NCBI GenBank assembly: GCA_964597895.1
Contig: CAZQZS010000001.1
Coordinates: 183,178 to 247,177, forward strand
Origin: an uncultured Candidatus Saccharibacteria bacterium
GTDB taxonomy: Bacteria; Patescibacteriota; Doudnabacteria; UBA920
Length of the DNA: 64,000 nt
Reading direction: 5' to 3'
Positions 1-58,832 of the stretch are shown here, in pieces (the stretch's first letter is position 1; every line of letters starts with the position of its first letter). The translations under genes and the position numbers were made by a program. Below the pieces are notes generated by a model. That model ran no database searches. It had not been told where the DNA came from and saw nothing but the letters and a program-made list of their open reading frames with translations.

Positions 1-131
1 CCAGCGGCGAGGATACCTCCGGAAAGGGGAGGCAGACCGCGAAGCGGTCGTTGGAAAGGGTCCGGGTTAAGTCCAAACTTGGTTTGGACTGCTAACCGGT
101 GAAAACCCTTTCCGGGTTTCCCCCTCCAAGA
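1..131 (+). repeat. Family-A structured intergenic repeat, long variant, 5' end truncated by window edge; ends 6 nt before rplP ATG
   Basis: Near-identical to 4607-4756 (shares ggaaaggggaggcagaccgcgaagcggtcgttggaa plus 48-nt insert with gtccaaacttggtttggac hairpin and gaaaaccc/gggttt 3' hairpin ending cccctccaag). Confidence 0.8.
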
Positions 132-136
132 ACATT

Positions 137-541
137 ATGTTAATTCCAAAAAAGGTCAAACACCGCAAGCATCACCGCGGTCATAACAAGGGTAAAGCTA
201 CTTCCGGTAACACAATTGCTTTCGGCTCCTACGCTTTGAAGGCAATGGAAGGCCGCTTTGTTACTGCCCGCCAGATTGAAGCTGCTCGTCGCGCCATGAC
301 TCGTTCTGTACAGCGCGGTGGCAAAATCTGGATTCGTATTTTCCCAGACAAGCCGATTACCGATCACGGTAACGAATCTGTGATGGGTAGCGGTAAGGGT
401 GCGGTATCCCATTTCGTGGCTGTCGTAAAGAAAGGCCGTATTCTGTTTGAGATGGACGGTGTGAGCGAAGAAGCTGCTCGCGAAGCTATGCGCCTCGCAG
501 CGCACAAGTTGCCAGTAAAGTCCAAATTCCTAATTAAGTAA
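137..541 (+). CDS. rplP: 50S ribosomal protein L16
   Basis: 134 aa, [15 protein letters not shown]...; classic L16 N-terminus and operon position. Confidence 0.95.
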
Positions 542-542
542 T

Positions 543-725
543 ATGAAGTATTCATCATTATCCAAAAAGAAAGCCGAAGACATTCGTAAAGAATTGATTC
601 AGCTGCAAGAAAAGCGCGAGAACCTCAGAATGAAAGTGAAGCTGGGCCAGGTTAAGAATGCCCACGAACTTTCTGCGGTGCGCAAGGATATTGCTCGAAT
701 TCTAACTTACTTAAGAGCTAACTAA
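543..725 (+). CDS. rpmC: 50S ribosomal protein L29
   Basis: 60 aa, operon position between L16 and S17, K/E/R-rich helical protein. Confidence 0.85.
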   Translation: MKYSSLSKKKAEDIRKELIQLQEKRENLRMKVKLGQVKNAHELSAVRKDIARILTYLRAN

Positions 726-729
726 ACAT

Positions 730-972
730 ATGACTACAGCAACTAAGCAACAAATGACCGGCACTGTTATTTCCAACAAGATGGATAAAACAGTTGTGGT
801 AAAAGTAGATTTGGTAAAGCGTCACCCAAAGTATCACAAGAGCTATACCAAGTCCTACCGCTACAAAGCGCATGACGCAGACAACAGCTGTGAAATCGGA
901 GACAAAGTGGTAATTGAATCCATTCGTCCGATGAGCCGCGACAAGCGTTTCGCTGTTATTAAGAAAGTTTAA
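730..972 (+). CDS. rpsQ: 30S ribosomal protein S17
   Basis: 80 aa; GTVISNKMDKTVVVKV motif typical of S17. Confidence 0.9.
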   Translation: MTTATKQQMTGTVISNKMDKTVVVKVDLVKRHPKYHKSYTKSYRYKAHDADNSCEIGDKVVIESIRPMSRDKRFAVIKKV

Positions 973-984
973 TTAATTTATTCT

Positions 985-1093
985 CCGAGTCGTCTGGTCT
1001 TGCCAGCGACGAGGAAACCTCCGGAAAGGGGAGGCAGACCGCGAAGCGGTCGTTGGAAGGGGAAAACCCCTTCTGGGTTGTCCCCTCCAAAGA
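985..1093 (+). repeat. Family-A structured intergenic repeat, short variant, ends 8 nt before rplN ATG
   Basis: ccgagtcgtctggtcttgccagcgacgaggaaacctccggaaaggggaggcagaccgcgaagcggtcgttggaaggggaaaaccccttctgggttgtcccctccaaaga; three conserved hairpins. Confidence 0.8.
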
Positions 1094-1101
1094 ATACACC
1101 T

Positions 1102-1473
1102 ATGTTACAAATTCGTTCTTACATTAAAATTGCAGACAATACCGGCGCCAAGGTCGTCAACGTGTTTAGCGTGAACGGAAAGAATAACCGTCGCTTTGCT
1201 CGCGTTGGGGATGTTGTCGCGGGGTCTGTTCGCCAGGCTGCACCAAACGGTTCAGTTAAGAAAGGCGATAAGATTTACGCTGTGATTGTTCGGACCCGCA
1301 AGGAAATCCGCCGCAAGGACGGATCTTACATCCGCTTTGATGAGAACGCAGGTGTATTAGTAGATAAAGAAAAGGGCGAGCCAAAAGGCACCCGTATCTT
1401 TGGTCCAATCCCTCGCGAAGTTCGCGACGCAGGATTTACCAAGATTGCCTCTCTGGCGCCGGAAGTAATATAA
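1102..1473 (+). CDS. rplN: 50S ribosomal protein L14 (track ORF starts at 1000 inside the repeat; true start ATG at 1102)
   Basis: MLQIRSYIKIADNTGAK... canonical L14 N-terminus. Confidence 0.93.
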   Translation: MLQIRSYIKIADNTGAKVVNVFSVNGKNNRRFARVGDVVAGSVRQAAPNGSVKKGDKIYAVIVRTRKEIRRKDGSYIRFDENAGVLVDKEKGEPKGTRIFGPIPREVRDAGFTKIASLAPEVI

Positions 1474-1477
1474 ATCT

Positions 1478-1804
1478 ATGACTCAAGTAAAGCTCAAAAT
1501 TAAGAAAGGCGACACCGTAAAGGTATTGTCTGGCAAGGACAAAGGCAAGACTGGCAAAGTATTGCGCGTGCTTCCTAGTGTCCACAAGGTAGTCGTAGAG
1601 AACGTAAATGTTCACACTAAGTATGAACGTCCTCGTGGCACCCGCCAGCGCACTCCGCAGCAAATTTCCTTTGCAAGCCCAATGCCTGTTTCTAAAGTTA
1701 TGCTGGTTGATTCAAATTCCGGCAAGCCGACCCGCGTTGGATATCAGATTTTAGAAAACGGAACCAAGCAGCGCATCGCCAAGAAGAGCGGAAAAGCAGT
1801 CTAA
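1478..1804 (+). CDS. rplX: 50S ribosomal protein L24
   Basis: KIKKGDTVKVLSGKDKGKTGKV KOW motif. Confidence 0.92.
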   Translation: MTQVKLKIKKGDTVKVLSGKDKGKTGKVLRVLPSVHKVVVENVNVHTKYERPRGTRQRTPQQISFASPMPVSKVMLVDSNSGKPTRVGYQILENGTKQRIAKKSGKAV

Positions 1805-1816
1805 TAATATTTATTT

Positions 1817-2356
1817 ATGAATCGTTTACAAGAACAATATAATAAAGAGATTGCTCCAGCCTTGAAGGAAAAGTTCGGCTATACCAATGTAATGGCTGTG
1901 CCGAAAATCAAGCAGATCAATATCAATATCGGCGTTGGTAAGTACCTCAAAGACAATCGCTTTATGGAATCAATCCGCAAAGACCTGACAGCTTTGTCTG
2001 GTCAGAAGCCGGTTGAAACCAAAGCGCGCAAGTCTATCGCTGGATTCAAGATTCGTGATGGGCAGGTTGTCGGAATGACAGTCACCCTCCGCGGTCAGCG
2101 CATGTATGATTTTCTGGACAAGCTGATCAGTATCGGTCTTCCACGCGTGAAGGACTTCCGTGGTGTATCTAAGAAAGGCTTTGACCGCCGTGGTAATTAC
2201 AACCTCGGACTCAAGGAACATCTTGTTTTCCCGGAAATTTCCCAAGACGCGCTAGAACACATCTTTGGTCTGCAAATCACTATTGTTACTGACGCAGGCA
2301 AAGACGAGCCAGCTTACGAGCTGCTCAAAGCAATGAAGTTTCCATTTAAAGACTAA
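1817..2356 (+). CDS. rplE: 50S ribosomal protein L5
   Basis: 179 aa, NVMAVPKIKQININIGVG, L5 family. Confidence 0.93.
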   Translation: MNRLQEQYNKEIAPALKEKFGYTNVMAVPKIKQININIGVGKYLKDNRFMESIRKDLTALSGQKPVETKARKSIAGFKIRDGQVVGMTVTLRGQRMYDFLDKLISIGLPRVKDFRGVSKKGFDRRGNYNLGLKEHLVFPEISQDALEHIFGLQITIVTDAGKDEPAYELLKAMKFPFKD

Positions 2357-2378
2357 TCATTAAGTAACTAAATTTTCG

Positions 2379-2478
2379 CTTGGGCTAAGCCTGAGCCGAC
2401 CCGACGTAGTGTAACGAGGTGGGTCGCAGCGAAGGCGCCAGTTAAGCGAAAATTTAAGAGGAGTACTTGGCGGAGGGC
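2379..2478 (+). other. Structured element inside an unusually long (175 nt) rplE-rpsZ spacer; closed by perfect 12-bp stem aaattttcgctt/aagcgaaaattt
   Basis: Inverted repeat at 2379-2390 and 2467-2478 enclosing GC-rich inner hairpins (cgaccc...gggtcg). Confidence 0.5.
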
Positions 2479-2531
2479 GATAGGAATTAGCATTAGCTGA
2501 TACCGATAGCCCGGCAGACAAGTACGACGAT

Positions 2532-2726
2532 ATGGCTAAAAAGAGTTTAATCGCAAAAGCAAATCGCAGTTTGAAGAAACCGAAGTTCTCTTCTCGAGTA
2601 ATTCGGCGCTGTTTGAAGTGCGGCCGTAAAGCTGCTTTCATGAGAGATTTCTCTTTGTGCCGTATTTGTTTTAGAGAATTAGCTAGCCGCGGCGAAATCC
2701 CTGGCGTAGTAAAGGCCTCCTGGTAA
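2532..2726 (+). CDS. rpsZ: 30S ribosomal protein S14 type Z (zinc-binding, 4 Cys)
   Basis: 64 aa with CLKCGRK...CRICFRE. Confidence 0.9.
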
Positions 2727-2730
2727 AACT

Positions 2731-3123
2731 ATGTATACAGATCCAATTTCCGACATGTTAACAAGAATCCGCAATGGGCTTGCAGCAGGCAAGCAGGATT
2801 TGGTAATGCCTTACTCTAAGTACAAGCACAGCTTGGCTAAAGTATTGTTAGAAGAAGGCTTTCTCTCTGGCGTCAATGAGTTGCCTGGCCGCATCAAAAT
2901 GCTCCAGATCAATTTGAAGTATGATAACGGCGGTAGCCCGGTAATTTCTGGCATCAAGCGCGTTAGCACTCCAGGACAGCGCATTTACATGCCTGTCGGC
3001 AAGATTCCTCGCACTAACGGCGGCTACGGCGTGACAGTTGTTTCCACATCCAAAGGTCTAGTTACAGATAAGCGCGCCCGCAAGGATCGCATCGGCGGAG
3101 AAGTAATTTGCCAAATTTGGTAA
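2731..3123 (+). CDS. rpsH: 30S ribosomal protein S8
   Basis: DPISDMLTRIRNG N-terminus. Confidence 0.93.
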   Translation: MYTDPISDMLTRIRNGLAAGKQDLVMPYSKYKHSLAKVLLEEGFLSGVNELPGRIKMLQINLKYDNGGSPVISGIKRVSTPGQRIYMPVGKIPRTNGGYGVTVVSTSKGLVTDKRARKDRIGGEVICQIW

Positions 3124-3138
3124 AGGTTAATCAAATAT

Positions 3139-3720
3139 ATGAGTAGAGTAGGTAAAAAACCAGTCATTCTTCCAAACGGCATTACCGCCGAATTGAAAGA
3201 CAACACCCTGACCATCAAAGGTGGTAAAGGCAGTTTAACTATGACCGTTCATCCAAAAGTTACAGTTGAAATTAAGGATAACGAAGTCTCTGTTGATGTA
3301 GCAAAGAAAGAAGACAAGCGCGAAAAAGCTCTATGGGGCTTGTCCCGCGCTTTGGTTCAAAATATGGTTGATGGTCTGGAAAAAGGTTACAGCAAGCAGC
3401 TTGATGTAGTCGGTGTTGGTTTTAAAGCTGAAGTCCGCGGCAAAGATCTGGTTCTCAACTTAGGTTTCTCTCACCCAATTGAATTCCCAATTCCAGAAGG
3501 CATTGAAGTGAAGGCCGAAAAGGATCCAGCTAAAGTTACTATTCAGCAATATCAGACTACTATTACATTGACCGGTATTGATAAGCAGTTGGTTGGCCAG
3601 GTCGCAGCCAACATTCGCGAATTAAAGAAGCCAGAACCTTATAAGGGCAAGGGTATTCGTTATAGCGACGAAAACATCCTGCGCAAGGCTGGTAAAGTCG
3701 TTAAGGCGGTAGGTAAATAA
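3139..3720 (+). CDS. rplF: 50S ribosomal protein L6
   Basis: [15 protein letters not shown]... two-domain L6. Confidence 0.93.
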
Positions 3721-3721
3721 T

Positions 3722-4075
3722 ATGAACAAGATTCAGCATAAACAACTCAAGCATCAGCTCCGCAAGGGACGCGTGCGCAGCGTAGTTTCTGGGACCACTA
3801 GCCGGCCACGCCTGTCAGTGTTCCGCTCTAATGCTCACATCTCAGCCCAGATTATTGATGACGAAACCGGCAAGACCTTAGCATCCTCTTCTACTTCTAT
3901 TTTGAAAGCTTCTGGTAATAAAGTAGAGCAAGCAGTAGCAGTTGGTAAGGATATCGCTGCTAAAGCACAAGCTGCTGGCGTAAAGGCTGTCGTATTTGAC
4001 CGCGGCGGCTATAAGTATCATGGCCGCGTTAAAGCAATCGCTGATGGCGCTCGCGAAGCTGGCCTGCAATTTTAA
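3722..4075 (+). CDS. rplR: 50S ribosomal protein L18
   Basis: [20 protein letters not shown] motif. Confidence 0.92.
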
Positions 4076-4093
4076 TTCTAATTCTCAATAACT

Positions 4094-4594
4094 ATGGAAA
4101 AGAGATCTCGCAAACCGAATAATCGCACTCCGCAGCAGCCTCGTGAATTTGATCAGAAGGTTGTGGAAGTTAAGCGCGTCACCCGCGTAGTTGCTGGTGG
4201 TAAGCGCATGCGTTTCCGCGCTTTGGTGGTAATTGGTGACCACAAAGGCAAAGTTGGTATTGGTTTGAAAAAGGGGATGGACGTTACTGAGAGCGTCAAC
4301 AAAGCCGTGAATGCTGCAAAGAAGAACATGATTACTGTACCGATTGTTAACGATACGATTCCTCACGAAGTTAAAGTAAAGTACAAGTCCAGCAAACTCT
4401 TGATGATGCCTGCTCGTCCTGGTACTGGTGTAATTGCCGGTGGCGCTGTCCGTAGCGTTTTGGACATGGCTGGTATTAAGAACGTAATCAGCAAAATGGT
4501 TGGGTCTAACAATAAGACTAACAACGTTCGCGCTGCTTACGAAGCGTTCAAGATGATGCGCAGTAAAGAAGATATCTTGGCAGCCCGCAAATAA
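4094..4594 (+). CDS. rpsE: 30S ribosomal protein S5
   Basis: VTRVVAGGKRMRFRALVVIGD...; S5 dsRBD and C-terminal domain. Confidence 0.93.
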   Translation: MEKRSRKPNNRTPQQPREFDQKVVEVKRVTRVVAGGKRMRFRALVVIGDHKGKVGIGLKKGMDVTESVNKAVNAAKKNMITVPIVNDTIPHEVKVKYKSSKLLMMPARPGTGVIAGGAVRSVLDMAGIKNVISKMVGSNNKTNNVRAAYEAFKMMRSKEDILAARK

Positions 4595-4606
4595 CTAATT
4601 TAAACC

Positions 4607-4756
4607 CCGAGTCGTCTGGGTCTCCCAGCGACGAGGAAACTTAAGGAAAGGGGAGGCAGACCGCGAAGCGGTCGTTGGAAAGGGTCCGGGTTAAGTCCAA
4701 ACTTGATTTGGACTGCTAACCGGTGAAAACCCCTTCTGGGTTTTCCCCTCCAAAGA
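4607..4756 (+). repeat. Family-A structured intergenic repeat, long variant, occupying the position where rpmD (L30) normally sits; ends 5 nt before rplO ATG
   Basis: Near-identical to 1-131 over ~130 nt. Confidence 0.8.
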
Positions 4757-4761
4757 GATAT

Positions 4762-5196
4762 ATGATCAAGCTACACGATTTAAAACGTCATCCAAAATCA
4801 ACCAAGCGCCGCAAAGTTGTCGGTCGCGGTGTTGGTAGTGGACACGGTACCTATTCCACCCGCGGTGCCAAAGGTCAAAAGTCCCGCACCGGGCACTCCA
4901 AAACCCCAGCTCGCTTTGAAGGTGGCCGTCAACCGTTGATTCGCCAAGTGCCAAAGAGCCGCGGTTTTAAGAGCTTGCATGAAAGCGCGATGGCAGTGAG
5001 CGTTACTGCTCTCAATAAATTCGCCGACGGCGATGTTGTAACCATCGCAACCCTAAAGAAGGCAGGACTTATCCCAAGCACGGTTAATAGAGTCAAATTG
5101 CTCAAGGGTGATCTTAAGCGCAAGCTTACAGTCGGCGTCCCTGCGTCTGCGACAGCAAAAGAAGCTATCGAAAAAGCAGGCGGCAGCATTAAATAA
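4762..5196 (+). CDS. rplO: 50S ribosomal protein L15 (track ORF 4723 starts inside the repeat; true start 4762)
   Basis: MIKLHDLKRHPKSTKRRKVVGRGVGSGHG. Confidence 0.92.
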   Translation: MIKLHDLKRHPKSTKRRKVVGRGVGSGHGTYSTRGAKGQKSRTGHSKTPARFEGGRQPLIRQVPKSRGFKSLHESAMAVSVTALNKFADGDVVTIATLKKAGLIPSTVNRVKLLKGDLKRKLTVGVPASATAKEAIEKAGGSIK

Positions 5197-5241
5197 TAAA
5201 TTTTAAGATGCCATCTTTGCCTGTGACTAAGATGGCATCTA

Positions 5242-6534
5242 TTGTATAATACCAATATGAATAAACTCAGTTTAATTTGGAAAACTAAGGATTTGCGCTG
5301 GAAAATCACCATGGTGCTGATTCTCTTGCTGATGACCCGCGTTTTGGCGCACATCCCAATCCCTGGGGTTAGCGTAGAAGGTTTGCGGACTTTCTTTGAA
5401 AGCAACCAATTCTTGAATTTGTTGAATATTTTCTCTGGTGGTGGGCTGAGCAATTTTTCTATTGCTTTACTTGGTGTCGGTCCTTACATTACCGCATCTA
5501 TCATCATGCAACTCTTGGCCATGATCGTACCTTCACTGCAGGAATTGCAAAAGGAAAGCGGAGAAGCTGGTCGTACAAAAATCAACCAGTACACAAGATT
5601 CCTAACTATCCCATTAGCGATTTTGTCCGGATTCGGTACTATTCGCTTGCTGCAAAGCCAGGGCGGAGCAGAACTGCTCGGCGTGTTCACTCCTTTCCAG
5701 TGGTTTTTGACTTTGCTCGCGGTTACAGCCGGAACCATGCTAGTCATGTGGATCGGTGAAATTATTTCTGAGTACGGCATTGGTAATGGTATCTCTTTGG
5801 TAATTTTCGCAGGTATCGTTGCGCAGCTGCCAGCCAGCGCAGGCTCTTTGATTGAACTGTATGATCCAACTCAATTGCCGACAATTTTAGGTTTTGCTGC
5901 TGTCTCACTGCTGGTTATTGCTGGAGTGGTCTATGTAACTGAAGCTCAGCGGAATATTCCTGTATCTTATGCTAAACGCATGCAGGGTGAACGCCAGGTC
6001 GGCGGAGTCAGTTCTCATCTGCCTTTGCGTTTAAACCAAGCCGGTGTAATTCCAATCATCTTTGCCATTTCCTTGTTGCTGTTCCCAGCGATTATCGCCC
6101 AGTTCTTTGTGAACGCCAAAACTCCTTTGGTTGCAGAATGGGCGCAGAAAGCTATTGACTTCACTAATAATCAAGGGCTGTGGTACGGCGTGGCTTACTT
6201 CGTATTAGTGGTATTGTTCACCTATTTCTACACCAATATCGTGGTTAATCCTGATGATGTTTCCAAGAATATGCAGCGCAGCGGGGGCTTTATTCCTGGT
6301 ATTCGCCCGGGAAATCAGACAGCTGATTATCTTTATAAAGTGCTAAACCGCATTACCTTGCCTGGTTCGTTATTCCTTGGCACGATTGCTATTCTGCCGT
6401 TCTTGATGCAGACTTGGACAGGCACTCAAGCCTTAACATTCGGCGGTACCGGATTGCTTATTGTTGTATCGGTTGTCATTGAAAGTATCAAACAGGTTGA
6501 GGCACAACTTACAATGCACGATTACCAGAAATAA
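5242..6534 (+). CDS. secY: Preprotein translocase subunit SecY (start may be 5257)
   Basis: 430 aa, 10 TM segments, conserved plug and gate regions, operon position after L15. Confidence 0.93.
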   Translation: MYNTNMNKLSLIWKTKDLRWKITMVLILLLMTRVLAHIPIPGVSVEGLRTFFESNQFLNLLNIFSGGGLSNFSIALLGVGPYITASIIMQLLAMIVPSLQELQKESGEAGRTKINQYTRFLTIPLAILSGFGTIRLLQSQGGAELLGVFTPFQWFLTLLAVTAGTMLVMWIGEIISEYGIGNGISLVIFAGIVAQLPASAGSLIELYDPTQLPTILGFAAVSLLVIAGVVYVTEAQRNIPVSYAKRMQGERQVGGVSSHLPLRLNQAGVIPIIFAISLLLFPAIIAQFFVNAKTPLVAEWAQKAIDFTNNQGLWYGVAYFVLVVLFTYFYTNIVVNPDDVSKNMQRSGGFIPGIRPGNQTADYLYKVLNRITLPGSLFLGTIAILPFLMQTWTGTQALTFGGTGLLIVVSVVIESIKQVEAQLTMHDYQK

Positions 6535-14798: not shown

Positions 14799-14934
14799 TT
14801 TGGCCAATTTCTTTGTCGTCAGCTCCGCTACTCGTTCACCGTAACTTTCATTACGACTCACTCGTTGCTCGCTGACTCCTGGCTCGCGATGGTCGGGCTT
14901 TGCCCGACCAAGCTCGTGTCGAACTTGACTCAAA
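14799..14934 (+). repeat. Family-C structured intergenic repeat, copy 1, with extra ggtcgggc-ttt-gcccgacc hairpin
   Basis: Shares ttggccaatttctttgtc...ctcgttcaccgtaacttNcattacgRctcactcgKtgctc...gaacttgRctcaaa with 17303-17400. Confidence 0.8.
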
Positions 14935-17302: not shown

Positions 17303-17400
17303 TTTGGCCAATTTCTTTGTCACCAGTTCCGCTCCTCGTTCACCGTAACTTTTATTACGGCTCACTCGGTGCTCACTGGTTTCGCGAACTTGGCTCAAAA
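17303..17400 (+). repeat. Family-C structured intergenic repeat, copy 2
   Basis: See 14799-14934; conserved hairpin cgtaa-cttttat-ttacg at 17344-17359. Confidence 0.8.
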
Positions 17401-22817: not shown

Positions 22818-22978
22818 TCGCTCATTTGGCTTCAGTCGGAAGTAAATTCCAACCTTCAGCCAAATATCGCCCCTTTGGGGTTTAACCAATTGCTTCGTTA
22901 TTTTCCTCGGAACCCTGTCATCGTAGCTTTACTACGACTCCAGAGTTCCTCGGAAAATGCCTCGCACTTGGCTAAACG
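22818..22978 (+). repeat. Family-B structured intergenic repeat, copy 1 (contains terminator-like gcccctttggggttt and conserved hairpin cgtag-cttta-ctacg)
   Basis: Shares ~80 nt near-identity with 33974-34040 and a core related to family C. Confidence 0.8.
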
Positions 22979-33973: not shown

Positions 33974-34136
33974 TCGCTCATTTGGCTTAAGTTGTAAGTA
34001 AATTCCAACTTTCAGCCAAATATCGCCCCTTCGGGGTTTAGTCAATTTCATTGTCATCGGCTTCCGTTACTCATTCATCGTACTATTAAGTACGACTCAT
34101 TCGTTACTCAGCCGATTCCTCGAGCTTGACTAAACG
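33974..34136 (+). repeat. Family-B structured intergenic repeat, copy 2 (gccccttcggggttt; hairpin cgtac-tattaa-gtacg)
   Basis: See 22818-22978. Confidence 0.8.
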
Positions 34137-41408: not shown

Positions 41409-41511
41409 TTATGATCTATTCGCGGATCTGGTTTTCCCAGGCCGAGAATCTCCAAGGAAGGGTGAGCTGTTGAGAGAAACACTTTTCAGGTCTCTTTCTT
41501 AATATTTTTTT

Positions 41512-41883
41512 ATGACTCCTGGTCAACTCATTTCCAAAACAGTACTCATGCAGCTATTTTTGGTGATCATCAAGATCATCTTTTTTGGTTTCTTAAACAT
41601 TGAGTTGTTATCAATTCTTATAGTCTATTATCTGCTTTTGGCAGCTTGTGCCATCGCTTTGGTTCGTCGCTTCGGCCCGCTTAATTACTTTGAGGCATTT
41701 CTGGCCATGGGGTTATGGTTAATACTCAGTTTAGTAATGGATTACTTAATTACAGCTTCCATTATCGGCAGGGAAGTGTTCAGTGATTATCATTTTTGGA
41801 TTTCATACGCCGTAGTACTCTTGGCTATACTGATCTTTCACAAAAAACAGCATGTGGAAATGCGCAAAGCTTTAAAGAAGTGA
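41512..41883 (+). CDS. Hypothetical polytopic membrane protein (123 aa)
   Basis: 4 hydrophobic helices. Confidence 0.5.
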   Translation: MTPGQLISKTVLMQLFLVIIKIIFFGFLNIELLSILIVYYLLLAACAIALVRRFGPLNYFEAFLAMGLWLILSLVMDYLITASIIGREVFSDYHFWISYAVVLLAILIFHKKQHVEMRKALKK

Positions 41884-49326: not shown

Positions 49327-49431
49327 TGGAGAGGGCGCCGGGATTTGAACCCGGACCTTGGCCTAAGTTGGCCTGCCTCTGGGGAGGTACAGTTTTCAAG
49401 ACTGTTGCTTTTTCCATTAAGCTACGCCCCC
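49327..49431 (-). tRNA. tRNA-Ser(UGA)-like, 105 nt, with abnormal 34-nt variable region
   Basis: Acceptor GGGGGCG/CGCCCTC, D arm GCTT-AATGGAAA-AAGC, anticodon arm ACAGT-CTTGAAA-ACTGT, T arm CCGGG-TTCAAAT-CCCGG, encoded CCA. Confidence 0.7.
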
Positions 49432-50855: not shown

Positions 50856-51148
50856 ACATTAAAGTTAATTATATTTTGAGAGTAACTCCATACTTACTTG
50901 TTGTCAAGGGATAGTCGGGCGGTTAAGTGTGCATAACTAGGGAGCTATTTCGGAGAATCATCAAAACCTTTTTAATTAAGAGGGTTTTTTTAGTTTTGAG
51001 GTGAGGTATATAAATTGAAAAATGGGTCAGAGTGGGGTATACTGACTTCAAGTGGAATGGAGTGGGGAAAAGTGGGGATAAGTGGGTGGATAAGTGGACA
51101 ACTCAAATCATTCAGATTTCTGAAACTAACAGTAATAGACGCGAAGAC

Positions 51149-51246
51149 ATCTGGCTTTGCCAGGGTCTGAGCACCCAAGGAAAGGGGAGGCAGGAGCGAA
51201 GCGACGTTGGAAGGAGAAAACCCTTCCCGGGTTTTCTCCTCCAAAC
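51149..51246 (+). repeat. Family-A structured repeat, divergent copy, ending at the mraZ ATG
   Basis: tctggctttgccag...ggaaaggggaggcag...ttggaaggagaaaaccc...gggttttctcctccaaa; compensatory changes in hairpins. Confidence 0.7.
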
Positions 51247-51684
51247 TGTCTTATGTTTATCGGTGAATTTCAAGCATCAATTGATGATAAGGCCCGCGTG
51301 GCAATCCCAGCCAAGTTCCGCAGTTCTTTGAAATCAAAGGTCGTAGTAACCAGAGGGTTGGATAACTCCTTGGTTCTGTACACATTAGACGAATGGAAGA
51401 AGCTTGCCGAGAAGGTGGCTAGTCTCCCAATTTCTACTGCCAACACGCGCGCTTTTTCTCGTCTGATGCTTGCAGGAGCAATGGATTGCGATATTGATAA
51501 GCAGGGTCGCATTGTCATTCCAGGCTACCTCAAGGAATTTGCCAAGATTTCCAAAAAGCTTGTTTTCGCCGGTCTTTATAACCGCGTGGAAATTTGGAGC
51601 GACGAAGCTTGGCAAAAATACAAAACACAAACAGAAAAACAAAGCAATCAAATTGCCGAACAATTGGGTGATCTAGGAGTATAA
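51247..51684 (+). CDS. mraZ: Transcriptional regulator MraZ (track ORF 51157 starts inside repeat)
   Basis: MFIGEFQASIDDKARVAIPAKFR and second SpoVT/AbrB-like repeat. Confidence 0.9.
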   Translation, partial: CLMFIGEFQASIDDKARVAIPAKFRSSLKSKVVVTRGLDNSLVLYTLDEWKKLAEKVASLPISTANTRAFSRLMLAGAMDCDIDKQGRIVIPGYLKEFAKISKKLVFAGLYNRVEIWSDEAWQKYKTQTEKQSNQIAEQLGDLGV

Positions 51685-58545: not shown

Positions 58546-58620
58546 TGGCTGGGGTACCAGGATTCGAACCTGGGAATGAGCGGACCAAAACCGCTTGCCT
58601 TACCACTTGGCTATACCCCA
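58546..58620 (-). tRNA. tRNA-Gln(UUG)
   Basis: Cloverleaf: acceptor TGGGGTA/TACCCCA, anticodon arm AGCGG-TTTTGGT-CCGCT, T arm CCAGG-TTCGAAT-CCTGG, G73+CCA. Confidence 0.85.
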
Positions 58621-58696
58621 ATATATAATTTTCTGATTCGTTTGCCTGTGTCCGCTCTGAGCGGACCTCTATAATATAACGGCTACTGGCGTAAGC

Positions 58697-58731
58697 CTAT
58701 GGCGCTTGCCTTACCACTTGGCTATACCCCA
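58697..58731 (-). pseudogene. Duplicated 5' half of tRNA-Gln (~30 nt identical to 58593-58620)
   Basis: gcttgccttaccacttggctatacccca repeated 104 nt downstream. Confidence 0.6.
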
Positions 58732-58832
58732 ATAATTTTCAATTAGCCTTGATATGATACCGAAAATAGTGGTTTTTGGCAAGAATGCGCGCGTTTTTGT
58801 ATGGTATAATTTACCTATATTTAACAAGATTT

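What the first reader, a model, noticed from the sequence alone, without database searches (positions are those of the whole stretch)
985..1093. Family-A: a conserved structured RNA-like repeat placed 6-12 nt upstream of start codons (rplP, rplN, rplO, mraZ)
Four copies (1-131, 985-1093, 4607-4756, 51149-51246) share a ~95-nt core, ggaaaggggaggcagaccgcgaagcggtcgttggaa followed by gg(N)gaaaaccc-loop-gggtttt(N)cc, ending in cccctccaaaga. Three hairpins are conserved, and two carry compensatory substitutions. The 5' hairpin reads ctggg/cccag, ctggc/gccag or ctggt/gccag across copies. The 3' hairpin reads ggggaaaaccc/gggttgtcccc in the rplN copy versus ggagaaaaccc/gggttttctcc in the mraZ copy, an A-U for G-C swap. 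Every copy ends immediately before a start codon that has no Shine-Dalgarno. The 3' arm leaves a CCUCC exactly where an SD would sit. An internal GGAGG could pair either with that CCUCC or sit in the 5' region, so the element may switch between mutually exclusive folds. The ORF track mis-extends rplN, rplO and mraZ through the element.
Basis: seen in the sequence. Interest (0 to 1): 0.78.

Follow-up and report, generated by a model that had tools for sequence, protein, structure and literature searches.

The report
Mobile structured RNA cassette before start codons
A real, previously uncatalogued family of about 110-165-base hairpin-rich repeats has spread through the gaps between essential genes in a small group of Patescibacteria, always ending just before the next gene's start codon; it behaves like a mobile cassette whose RNA fold is kept by selection, not like a dedicated ribosomal-protein regulator.

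Summary
The window holds the four reported copies plus a fifth, decayed one (41418-41511). All are on the + strand and each ends 7-11 nt before an ATG. No Rfam family matches.

I found eleven more copies in six related lineages, before nusA, mraZ, secY, rpsH, rplP, rplB, rplE and rplO. Three of these do not sit before a gene.

A covariance-model alignment of 12 copies is 92% paired. Fifteen pairs carry compensatory changes, against 6.7±1.5 in shuffles. Orthologous copies (mraZ, rplO) differ only by compensatory changes or in loops, so the fold is selected in place.

It is not a conserved leader:
- A strain about 99.5-99.9% identical to the window has a different insert at the rpsQ-rplN site.
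- Closer relatives lack the element where more distant ones have it.
- Each genome decorates a different set of genes.
- Copies cluster by genome, and mosaic and decayed variants exist.

The lack of a Shine-Dalgarno is the genome norm (41 of 53 genes). The proposed fold switch is unlikely, because the P3 hairpin wins by 14-24 kcal/mol.

Best reading: a duplicative, co-transcribed structured cassette that acts as a self-folding leader or insulator tolerated upstream of start codons. Its mobilisation mechanism and any host function remain unknown.

The parts
1..129 (+). Copy 1, long form, cut at its 5' end by the window edge. The tail is 130-136 and the rplP ATG is at 137.
   Evidence: 42.5 bits, 5'-truncated; L097 shows the same copy in a sister strain.
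968..1094 (+). Copy 2, the given finding: the complete short-form cassette between rpsQ and rplN. It includes an AT-rich 5' lead that supplies the rpsQ stop codon.
   Evidence: Boundaries come from the alignment with strain L097, which has a different 67-nt insert here. Covariance-model hit 984-1104, 118 bits.
984..1015 (+). P1 hairpin: UCC | GA | GUCG | U | CUGGU-CUU-GCCAG | CGAC | GA | GGA, with a tandem G.A internal loop.
   Evidence: MFE. 10 of 12 P1 pairs show compensatory changes. GA/GA is present in 9 of 9 copies.
1016..1036 (+). Linker AACCUCC plus the conserved purine tract GGAAAGGGGAGGCA. CCUCC/GGAGG form an optional mini-hairpin.
   Evidence: The tract is invariant in 9 canonical copies. 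The mini-hairpin appears in the MFE. The linker has decayed in several copies.
1037..1051 (+). P2 hairpin GACCGC-GAA-GCGGUC. Its sequence is free and its shape is kept.
   Evidence: Seven different P2 sequences all form hairpins, and 6 of 12 have tandem G.A pairs at the base.
1053..1090 (+). P3 long hairpin UUGGA-A-GGGGAAAACCC / loop of 5 / GGGUUGUCCCC-UCCAA.
   Evidence: MFE. 96% of cells are paired and 3 pairs are compensatory. RNAalifold predicts it independently.
1091..1104 (+). Unpaired A/U-rich tail (11 nt) and the rplN ATG.
   Evidence: Unpaired in every MFE. Homology with the element-free strain resumes at 1095.
4592..4753 (+). Copy 3, long form, between rpsE and rplO. A 40-nt extra branch (4685-4724) is inserted in the 5' strand of P3. 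The ATG is at 4762.
   Evidence: 78.8 bits. The orthologous short form is in L110. The same branch occurs in the L105 rpsH copy.
41418..41511 (+). Copy 4, degenerate: P1 is recognisable, P2 is lost and P3 has decayed. It lies before the ATG at 41512 of a 123-aa hypothetical gene.
   Evidence: Covariance-model hit of 29.5 bits, E = 1.5e-5. The fold is not better than shuffles (z = -1.0). No Pfam match for the gene.
51141..51244 (+). Copy 5, short form, in the mraZ 5' UTR. It lies downstream of a promoter-like site (51015-51043) and the GTGGG repeats. The ATG is at 51253.
   Evidence: 112.9 bits. The ortholog in species B (L092) differs only by compensatory changes and loop changes.

Best explanation
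Family-A is a lineage-restricted, multi-copy non-coding cassette of about 105-165 nt. It has spread by duplication or insertion into intergenic spacers of a small group of related Patescibacteria (MAGs labelled Doudnabacteria or Saccharibacteria).

**Fold.** It is read through as part of the operon mRNA. In the sense strand it folds into a chain of hairpins:
- P1, with an invariant tandem G.A loop.
- An optional CCUCC/GGAGG mini-hairpin.
- P2, of arbitrary sequence.
- A 16-bp P3, with an optional extra branch.

Its 3' end lies 7-11 nt from the next ATG.

**Most likely action.** I think it works as a self-contained, self-folding leader or 'insulator'. All of its G-rich (SD-like) and C-rich (anti-SD-like) tracts are locked into internal helices. 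The A/U-rich -1 to -11 segment and the start codon stay single-stranded. SD-independent initiation, which is the norm in this genome, would then still work after 100-170 nt have been dropped into an essential operon. A mis-folded copy would be harmful, which would explain why the fold is maintained locus by locus.

It is not a gene-specific ribosomal-protein regulator and probably not a two-state switch.

**Shown:** copy number, fold, covariation, position and orientation, presence/absence polymorphism, mosaic and decayed variants.

**Inferred:** transcription through the element, the effect on translation, and that spread is by transposition rather than recombination. The mobilising activity is unknown.
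For: **Reality and structure.**
- The core 15-mer occurs 4 times against 0.13 expected by chance.
- z-scores are -4.0 to -4.4 for three of the four copies folded, and -2.5 for the long rplO copy.
- On 12 copies, 92% of cells are paired against 79.8% in shuffles. Fifteen pairs have both-side changes against 6.7±1.5 (0 of 500 shuffles). Slid controls give 2-5.
- RNAalifold recovers P1 and P3.

**Selection at the locus.**
- mraZ copy, window versus species B: 2 compensatory pair changes, none disruptive. Linker, loop and tail are free to vary.
- rplO copy, window versus L110: 2 compensatory pair changes in upper P1.

**Sense-strand asymmetry.**
- The tandem G.A loop in P1 is conserved in 9 of 9 copies.
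- My tally over the pair tables gives about 9 G.U pairs against 2 A.C mismatches.

**Position.**
- 13 of 16 copies are sense and 7-11 nt from an ATG.
- This includes long spacers: mraZ, nusA (373 nt) and secY.
- Another repeat family in the same window (D1) sits just after stop codons instead.

**Spread and turnover.**
- L097 is 99.5-99.9% identical to the window but has another insert at the rplN site.
- L101, L095, L096, L102-104 and L107-109 lack the element at sites filled elsewhere.
- P2 subtypes cluster by genome.
- Mosaic copies occur in L105.
- The window has a decayed copy.
- L105 has a CCGAGAT scar at its rplO site.

**Tail accessibility.** Tail and ATG are unpaired in 6 of the 7 short-form MFE folds that include the ATG, and in both long-form folds. 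In D_nusA the MFE pairs the tail through the A and U of the ATG. In w_mraZ it pairs the tail up to the base before the ATG.

**Clade restriction.** There are no hits in 1.2 Mb of ribosomal-protein loci from 73 other lineages.
Against: - No expression data exist. Transcription and any effect on translation are inferred.
- Three of 16 copies are not before a gene: L003 (antisense behind secY), L091 and L089.
- In compact operons any insertion is bound to sit near a start codon. In longer spacers, promoters and terminators may leave only the -10 region free. The fixed distance could therefore be a survival filter rather than a function.
- The invariant unpaired AGGCAG, GGAAA and CG nucleotides are not explained by a passive insulator model.
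- Within-genome gene conversion could mimic some of the structural conservation.
- Nearly all genes in these loci share one strand, so sense-to-gene cannot be separated from a replication-strand bias.
Confidence: 0.5

Rival explanations
1. It is a purely selfish, MITE- or REP-like DNA element. The hairpins are recognition structures for a trans-acting transposase or recombinase acting on single-stranded DNA. Orientation and start-codon proximity come from target preference and from purging of harmful insertions. The RNA has no role.
For: - Presence/absence and replacement between near-identical strains.
- Patchy site occupancy among relatives.
- Genome-specific subfamilies, mosaic and decayed copies.
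- An antisense copy in L003 and a copy in a gene-poor non-coding region in L091.
- Logan contigs break inside the element, as expected for a repeat.
- Several other repeat families live in the same genomes.
- P2 often contains GCGAAGC, a motif I recall as an unusually stable DNA mini-hairpin (own knowledge).
- Few G.U pairs overall.
Against: - No terminal inverted repeats.
- No convincing target-site duplication; only 1-3 nt of microhomology at junctions.
- No transposase among the 10 window proteins scanned.
- P1 and P3 are unlike each other, which does not fit IS200/IS605-type ends.
- Individual inserted copies of a selfish element should decay neutrally. Yet orthologous mraZ and rplO copies kept their pairing through compensatory changes, with a P2 subtype private to the mraZ locus, which argues against conversion.
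- The GA/GA loops and the G.U over A.C excess are strand-asymmetric.
Confidence: 0.2
2. It is a regulated leader. A trans-acting factor, or a physical signal, binds the conserved unpaired nucleotides and the tandem G.A loops. Candidate factors are a ribosomal protein, a GGA-binding protein of the CsrA type, or a protein that reads G.A motifs. Binding would co-regulate translation of growth genes (r-proteins, secY, nusA, mraZ), possibly by shifting between the P3 fold and the GGAGG/CCUCC fold.
For: - Invariant unpaired GGAAA..AGGCAG and the CG junction across lineages.
- Invariant GA/GA loop.
- Three GGA motifs.
- The decorated genes are mostly growth or translation genes.
- The alternative pairing is real and becomes the MFE in variants that lack the P3 5' strand. 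In the L105 rplB copy it forms 9 contiguous pairs, GGAAGGGGA/UCCUCUUCC.
Against: - The gene set differs in every genome and even between strains, which is unlike a regulon.
- One copy precedes an unknown 123-aa gene.
- The P3 fold is favoured by 14-24 kcal/mol.
- No Rfam riboswitch or leader matches, even at E <= 10 over window 1-4800, which holds three of the five copies.
- The GGAGG is already sequestered by an upstream CCUCC in about half the copies.
- No candidate factor was identified.
Confidence: 0.15
3. It is an intercistronic processing or stability element. The hairpins would be cut or bound so that the polycistronic mRNA is split (for example by RNase III or RNase Y). P1 would then become a protective 5'-terminal stem-loop of the downstream monocistron. 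Known analogues are REP stabilisers and the plastid intercistronic expression element.
For: - It sits between cistrons of very long operons.
- P1 lies at the extreme 5' end of the cassette, preceded by an AT-rich stretch.
- The 16-bp P3 is a plausible double-strand RNase substrate.
- Relatives encode RNase Y.
- The plastid IEE precedent turned up in the literature search (PMC2230500, abstract only).
Against: - Nothing in the sequence shows cleavage.
- Copies in 5' UTRs with their own promoter (mraZ, secY) would not need processing.
- P3 is shorter than a typical RNase III substrate (own knowledge).
- This model does not explain the fixed distance to the ATG.
Confidence: 0.1
4. It is an independent small-RNA gene family that happens to lie upstream of genes.
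For: - The L003 copy stands alone on the opposite strand.
- The L091 copy lies in a long non-coding region.
- The element is a compact, stable fold.
Against: - No promoter-like site was found upstream of the operon-internal copies, and no terminator-like site downstream of them. The one terminator-like match inside the mraZ copy is an alternative pairing that overlaps P3, not a feature that follows the element.
- 13 of 16 copies abut a start codon within operons.
- The cassette supplies the upstream gene's stop codon.
Confidence: 0.03

Closest known systems
BOX elements (and RUP/SPRITE) of Streptococcus pneumoniae (compared from my own knowledge of the family)
   Same: Short non-coding multi-copy intergenic repeats. 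They are modular (optional or variable internal modules, like the long and short forms and the mosaic copies here). They are predicted to form stable RNA structures, are often close to the 5' ends of genes, and are co-transcribed.
   Different: No sequence relation. BOX is built from boxA/B/C modules and occurs in both orientations. It shows no fixed 7-11-nt distance to the ATG. It belongs to Firmicutes, not Patescibacteria.
ERIC/IRU repeats of enterobacteria and Correia (CREE/NEMIS) elements of Neisseria (compared from my own knowledge of the families)
   Same: Elements of about 100-160 nt inside transcribed intergenic regions of operons. They fold as RNA hairpins and are polymorphic for presence between strains.
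   Different: Those are single long imperfect palindromes with terminal inverted repeats (Correia also has a TA duplication). They are found in both orientations. Family-A has no terminal inverted repeats, is a chain of four unlike hairpins, and is almost always in sense.
REP/BIME elements and their RAYT transposases (compared from my own knowledge of the family)
   Same: Structured, abundant, intergenic and co-transcribed, with hairpins under selection.
   Different: REPs are 20-40-nt palindromes placed after stop codons, where they stabilise the upstream mRNA. They are linked to a RAYT gene. Family-A is 3-5 times longer and sits before start codons. No RAYT was seen, though only a small part of the genome was available.
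Autoregulatory ribosomal-protein leaders (e.g. the spc and S10 operon leaders)
   Same: Structured RNA directly upstream of r-protein cistrons, including rplN, the first gene of the spc operon.
   Different: Those are gene-specific, mimic an rRNA site and are conserved across large clades. Family-A is the same sequence before at least 10 unrelated genes, is absent in sister lineages, and matches no Rfam leader or rRNA model.
Split ribosome-binding sites bridged by a hairpin (phage T4 gene 38 type; from my own knowledge)
   Same: An SD-like GGAGG is separated from the ATG by stable hairpins that could bring the two closer together.
   Different: The single-stranded path here is about 13 nt plus two helix ends, which is longer than in the T4 case. 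The GGAGG has decayed in some copies (AGUGAGG, AGUCAGG) and is paired with an upstream CCUCC in others.

Membership tests
Any Rfam 15 family (riboswitches, leaders, ribozymes, sRNAs) | Match to a curated covariance model at or near its gathering score. | tested here: not met
   Only two tRNAs pass in the whole window. At E <= 10 over 1-4800, only chance snoRNA and fluoride hits far below threshold appear.
MITE (non-autonomous DNA transposon) | Terminal inverted repeats. | tested here: not met
   The first 30 nt against the reverse complement of the last 30 nt score at shuffle level in 2 of 3 cassettes and marginally in one.
MITE (non-autonomous DNA transposon) | Target-site duplication flanking the insert. 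| tested here: inconclusive
   Filled versus empty nusA site: aaatag|gata, with only an AG/G ambiguity. The rplO site in L105 keeps CCGAGAT, consistent with a GAG repeat or a deletion scar. There are too few clean pairs to decide.
MITE / REP-like repeats in general | Multi-copy, with presence/absence polymorphism between close strains and genome-specific subfamilies. | tested here: met
   5 copies in 64 kb; 5 copies in 20 kb of L105. L097 versus window; L101 versus L110; P2 subtypes.
REP/BIME | Short (20-40 nt) palindromic units downstream of genes, associated with a RAYT gene. | tested here: not met
   The unit is 105-165 nt, built of four unlike hairpins, and placed before start codons. RAYT association is not testable with the DNA available.
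IS200/IS605-derived palindrome-associated elements | Similar subterminal hairpins at both ends, recognised by one Y1 transposase, with insertion 3' of a fixed tetra- or pentanucleotide. | tested here: not met
   P1 and P3 share no sequence. A TAG/ATAG just upstream of P1 occurs in 7 of 12 copies by eye, which is only a lead.
Autoregulatory r-protein leader | Conserved upstream of the same r-protein gene across the clade. | tested here: not met
   Absent from the r-protein operons of L001, L002, L004-L007, L102-104 and L107-109. L003 has only an antisense copy behind secY. Occupied sites differ between the window and L105.
Riboswitch / two-state translational switch | Two mutually exclusive folds of comparable stability, with covariation for both. 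| tested here: not met
   The alternative fold is 14-24 kcal/mol worse in 8 canonical copies. Only anecdotal support for the alternative helix comes from variant copies.
Conserved structured RNA (generic) | Base pairs maintained by compensatory substitution beyond controls. | tested here: met
   15 versus 6.7±1.5 pairs, 0 of 500 shuffles, slid controls 2-5; 12 of 26 RNAalifold pairs are compensatory. Caveat: the alignment was fitted to the model.
Cis-acting 5' leader (generic) | Transcribed in sense as part of the downstream gene's mRNA. | not testable with these tools
   No transcriptome is available. Only position and orientation (13 of 16 copies in sense, 7-11 nt from an ATG) and a promoter-like site upstream of the mraZ copy bear on it.

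The most novel reading that the evidence does not exclude
Family-A is a portable, SD-independent translation-initiation module. It would be a mobile RNA structure that docks on the small ribosomal subunit, for example through its intramolecular GGAGG:CCUCC-type helix placed where the SD:anti-SD helix normally sits, or through the invariant GGAAA..AGGCAG strand. In doing so it would confer efficient initiation on whatever gene it lands in front of. That would make it a bacterial analogue of a transposable IRES or translational enhancer, in organisms where most genes lack an SD.
Probability: 0.12. Interest if true: 0.85.

Novelty: new variant of a known kind. Interest (0 to 1): 0.55.

Why it matters
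Patescibacteria have tiny, compact genomes. Finding their most essential operons (S10-spc, dcw, nusA) repeatedly invaded by 100-170-nt structured cassettes is unexpected, because ancestral spacers there are 4-20 nt.

Selection then maintains the RNA fold of these cassettes at individual loci. If the cassette only needs to be harmless, it shows what an insertion must look like to be tolerated inside an SD-poor operon. If it actively promotes initiation, it would be a natural, transferable leader part and a handle on how these organisms start translation.

Practically, the element causes gene callers to over-extend ORFs: rplN, rplO and mraZ in the window, and a 177-aa 'L15' and an rplB start placed 39 nt too early in public data. 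It also breaks short-read assemblies, so a covariance model for it would improve annotation of this clade.

Tried and rejected
- **Rfam.** Gathering thresholds on the whole window, and E <= 10 on 1-4800: no family.
- **3' half pattern in viral contigs.** Five hits, all an unrelated phage coding sequence. A more specific pattern gave one false positive in a microvirus-like contig. There is no viral copy.
- **Metagenome pattern scan.** Nine loci. L088 is a coding false positive and L086 is doubtful.
- **Coding hypothesis.** The reading frame through the element relative to the ATG differs between copies: in frame for rplN, mraZ, rplO and nusA; out of frame for rplP and the species B mraZ copy. 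It is therefore not a peptide (sequence inspection).
- **Promoter carried by the element.** The scan found no promoter-like site upstream of the operon-internal copies. AT-rich TAAT/TAAATAG boxes precede P1, but at the nusA site the box is also present in the empty allele.
- **Terminator.** No U-tract follows P3.
- **K-turn.** The G.A pairs lie in a symmetric 2x2 loop without the 3-nt bulge (inspection).
- **tRNA or rRNA mimicry.** No tRNA or rRNA model hit on the element.
- **MAFFT alignments.** They mis-register P1 of the mraZ copies and P2. I used a hand parse checked against the sequences and a covariance-model alignment instead.
- **Extending the source genome.** Exact-protein look-up found only 2-kb contigs, so no whole-genome census was possible.
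- **P3 loop to purine tract pseudoknot.** Looked at by eye only. Complementarity is 3-5 nt in most copies and none in two, so I did not pursue it.
Full report
**1. Checking the observation**

The four copies are present as described and align over a shared core. The 15-mer GGAAAGGGGAGGCAG occurs exactly four times, always on the + strand. Chance expectation is 0.13, and no shuffle of 100 reaches four.

Three of the four copies folded fold far better than shuffles (z = -4.0 to -4.4); the long rplO copy is weaker (z = -2.5). The same helices recur:
- P1, with a symmetric GA/GA internal loop and a one-base bulge.
- A short CCUCC/GGAGG hairpin in some copies.
- P2.
- A 16-bp P3.

The two 'long' copies (before rplP and rplO) carry a 40-nt extra hairpin inserted into the 5' strand of P3.

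So is the ORF mis-extension through the element.

It is decayed and again abuts an ATG, at 41512, of a 123-aa gene with no Pfam match.

'No Shine-Dalgarno' is true of these genes. But only 12 of 53 ATG-start genes in the window have an SD core, so this is the genome's norm.

**2. Is it a known RNA?**

No. Rfam 15 gives only two tRNAs in the window at gathering thresholds. Nothing meaningful appears on the element at E <= 10. Four literature searches found nothing about such an element in Patescibacteria.

**3. Relatives**

The organism is a patescibacterium. Its nearest L14 in the species-representative genome set is only 78-82% identical (MAGs labelled Saccharibacteria or Doudnabacteria). The closest NusA and L15 homologs carry Doudnabacteria labels.

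In 80 rplN loci, only one further copy appeared. It is in L003, on the opposite strand just behind secY, and lacks P1.

A structured DNA pattern run against metagenomes, plus contig look-ups guided by NusA and L15 homologs, gave more copies:

| Lineage | Locus | Gene downstream |
|---|---|---|
| Species B | L087 = L098 | nusA |
| Species B | L092 = L093 | mraZ (syntenic ortholog of the window's copy) |
| Species D | L090 | nusA |
| Species C | L105 = L106 | secY, rpsH, rplP, rplB, rplE |
| Species H | L110 | rplO (short form at the site where the window has the long form) |
| Unknown | L091 | none; 700-nt non-coding stretch of a gene-poor contig |
| Unknown | L089 | unclear; short contig of about 53% GC |

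Phage contigs gave only false positives.

The covariance model found nothing in 1.2 Mb of r-protein loci from 73 other lineages. The family is therefore restricted to this clade.

**4. Structure and covariation**

I parsed 12 canonical copies by hand and checked the parse against the sequences.
- **P1.** The two lower stems change by double substitutions: a-stem CG/GC/UA; b-stem GC/AU, UA/GC/CG, CG/AU, GC/CG/AU. The GA/GA loop is invariant (9 of 9).
- **P2.** There are seven unrelated sequences, all hairpins. Six of 12 have tandem G.A pairs at the base.
- **P3.** The sequence is largely fixed, but GC<->AU and UA<->AU swaps occur.

On a covariance-model alignment of 12 copies, the pair counts were as follows:
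- 92.0% of cells are paired, against 79.8±1.0 in shuffles.
- 15 pairs show both-side changes, against 6.7±1.5 (0 of 500 shuffles).
- Slid-partner controls give 2-5.

RNAalifold on the same alignment recovers P1 and P3, with 12 of 26 pairs compensatory. The caveat is that this alignment is fitted to the model.

The most telling comparisons are the orthologous ones.
- **mraZ copies, window versus species B.** The genomes are about 73% identical in DNA. The copies differ by two compensatory pair changes (AGAC/GUCU to GGAC/GUCC; GGAG/CUCC to GGGG/CCCC) and no disruptive change. Linker, P3 loop and tail have diverged freely.
- **rplO copies, window versus L110.** They differ by two compensatory pair changes in upper P1.

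The mraZ copies share a P2 subtype not found in other copies of either genome. Gene conversion is therefore an unlikely explanation. This points to selection on pairing at the locus.

Strand asymmetry favours the sense strand, as RNA or as that DNA strand. The G.A loops are conserved, and my tally over searches gives about 9 G.U pairs against 2 A.C mismatches.

**5. It is not a conserved leader; it turns over like a mobile cassette**

- A Logan contig (L097) is 99.9% and 99.5% identical to the window on either side of the rpsQ-rplN spacer. Yet it carries an unrelated 67-nt sequence in place of window 968-1094. The replaced segment includes the last rpsQ codon and the stop. L097 keeps the rplP copy.
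- The closest relative by L15 (93%, L101) has a different three-hairpin insert before rplO, whereas an 82% relative (L110) has Family-A there.
- L105 has ...aataCCGAGATatg at that site. This reads like a deletion scar between GAG repeats.
- L108 and L109 have 4-20-nt spacers, which is the likely ancestral state.
- NusA relatives at 78-84% identity lack the element.
- Species B has none in its r-protein operon.
- Species C has five copies there, at mostly different genes from the window.
- P2 subtypes cluster by genome: three window copies share one; in L105, two share another and two a third.
- Two L105 copies are mosaics in which the P3 5' strand is replaced by another hairpin.
- Short-read contigs break inside the element.
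- No terminal inverted repeats are present, and no clear target duplication.
- No transposase is among the 10 window proteins I scanned.

**6. Position**

Thirteen of the 16 copies are in sense and end 7-11 nt before an annotated or corrected ATG. The rplB start in L105 was corrected to 1996.

In compact operons this proximity is forced. But it also holds in the 373-nt nusA spacer, the mraZ 5' UTR of about 400 nt, and the secY spacer. Another repeat family in the same window (D1: 14799, 17303, 34038) sits just after stop codons instead.

At the nusA site the empty allele reads aaatag|gatatttATG. The filled one reads aaatag[...CCUCCAAG]gataaatATG. The insertion split an AGGA, and the element's terminal AAG rebuilt it.

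**7. The switch idea**

The purine tract GGAAAGGGGA can pair with the tail UCCCCUCC. In variants lacking the P3 5' strand, this becomes the MFE closing helix (the L105 rplB copy with 9 contiguous pairs, and window 41418).

In eight canonical copies, however, blocking the P3 5' strand costs 14-24 kcal/mol. In about half the copies the GGAGG is already paired to an upstream CCUCC. A thermodynamic two-state switch is therefore unlikely without a strong effector.

**8. Interpretation**

The evidence establishes three things: a new, clade-restricted, duplicative intergenic cassette; selection on its sense-strand fold at individual loci; and a strong preference, or survival filter, for the -7 to -11 position of start codons.

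I commit, at about 0.5, to the following reading. The cassette is co-transcribed and acts as a self-folding leader or insulator. It hides its own SD-like and anti-SD-like tracts in helices and leaves the start region open. This lets it live inside essential, SD-poor operons and makes mis-folding costly.

The rivals are:
- A purely selfish DNA-level element (0.2).
- A factor-regulated leader (0.15).
- A processing or stability element (0.1).
- An independent sRNA (0.03).

None can be excluded without expression data and a whole-genome census. The invariant unpaired GGAAA..AGGCAG..CG nucleotides remain unexplained. They are the best hint that something (ribosome, protein or transposase) reads the element.

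**9. Novelty and score**

The closest known kinds are modular intergenic repeats such as pneumococcal BOX, ERIC, Correia and REP elements. Family-A differs in four ways: it has no terminal inverted repeats, it is a chain of four unlike hairpins, it is almost strictly in sense, and it keeps a fixed distance to the ATG. I rate it a new variant of a known kind, with interest 0.55.

Noticed in passing
window 14799-14874, 17303-17378, 34038-34113 (also L098 9717-9797, L105 about 400-480): A second repeat family (about 76+ nt, 61-89% identical within the window). It sits 15-20 nt after stop codons on the + strand. It is conserved in species B, just upstream of the nusA Family-A copy, and a look-alike lies in the L3-L4 spacer of L105.
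   Followed up: partly
window 14882-14921; L098 8371-8410 (opposite strand); L105 8170-8430: A third short conserved motif (...GGTCGGGCTTTGCCCGACC...). It is shared between the window, species B and an S8-L6 spacer in species C.
   Followed up: no
window 22818-22901 and 33974-34057: Another two-copy direct repeat of 84 nt, 87% identical, containing a GCCCCTTYGGGGT hairpin. The second copy abuts the third copy of the 14799 family.
   Followed up: no
window 2357-2531: A 175-nt spacer between rplE and rpsN, where relatives have 10-140 nt. Long-range complementarity (AAATTTTCGCTT ... AAGCGAAAATTT) suggests yet another structured insert inside the spc operon.
   Followed up: no
L102-L104 (species B r-protein operon), L105: In relatives, most spacers of the S10-spc operon are 70-250 nt long and filled with different hairpin-rich inserts. 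L109 has 4-25-nt spacers. Invasion of intergenic spacers by structured repeats seems to be a general trait of this clade, not just of Family-A.
   Followed up: partly
L097 890-956; L105 9380-9480; L101 1860-1960: Alternative inserts occupy sites that hold Family-A elsewhere. One type contains GUCCUGAG...CCGAAGGAU. L101 has a neat three-hairpin junction closed by GUGUCAUC/GAUGACAAC.
   Followed up: no
window 49330-49431 (- strand): Rfam calls a tRNA here (62 bits; the anticodon loop reads UGA, so Ser-like) with a 31-nt insertion at the variable-arm position. The insertion contains AGGCAG followed by a hairpin. ARAGORN does not call this tRNA at all.
   Followed up: partly
window 58592-58623 and 58703-58734: An exact 32-nt duplication overlaps the 5' part of tRNA-Gln (58546-58620, - strand). 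It suggests a partial tRNA duplicate or a former integration site. Species B has similar tandem copies (L092 12199-12594).
   Followed up: no
window 51015-51110: Upstream of the mraZ copy there is a promoter-like site (TTGAAA-17-TATACT) followed by a run of GTGGG/GTGGGG repeats. This resembles the MraZ operator arrangement, so the element lies between the operator and the mraZ ATG.
   Followed up: partly
L105 1957 versus 1996; P0123 (L110 241-774): Public gene calls are distorted by the element. The rplB start in L105 is called 39 nt too early, inside the element. One L15 entry is 177 aa instead of 144 because the ORF is extended through the element.
   Followed up: yes
window 5197-5260 (also L101 2395-2465, L105 10430-10500): A conserved hairpin (GATGGCATC...GATGGCATC) followed by TGTATAAT lies just before secY. 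It suggests an internal extended -10 promoter with a very short leader. In L105 the Family-A copy was inserted right after this box.
   Followed up: no
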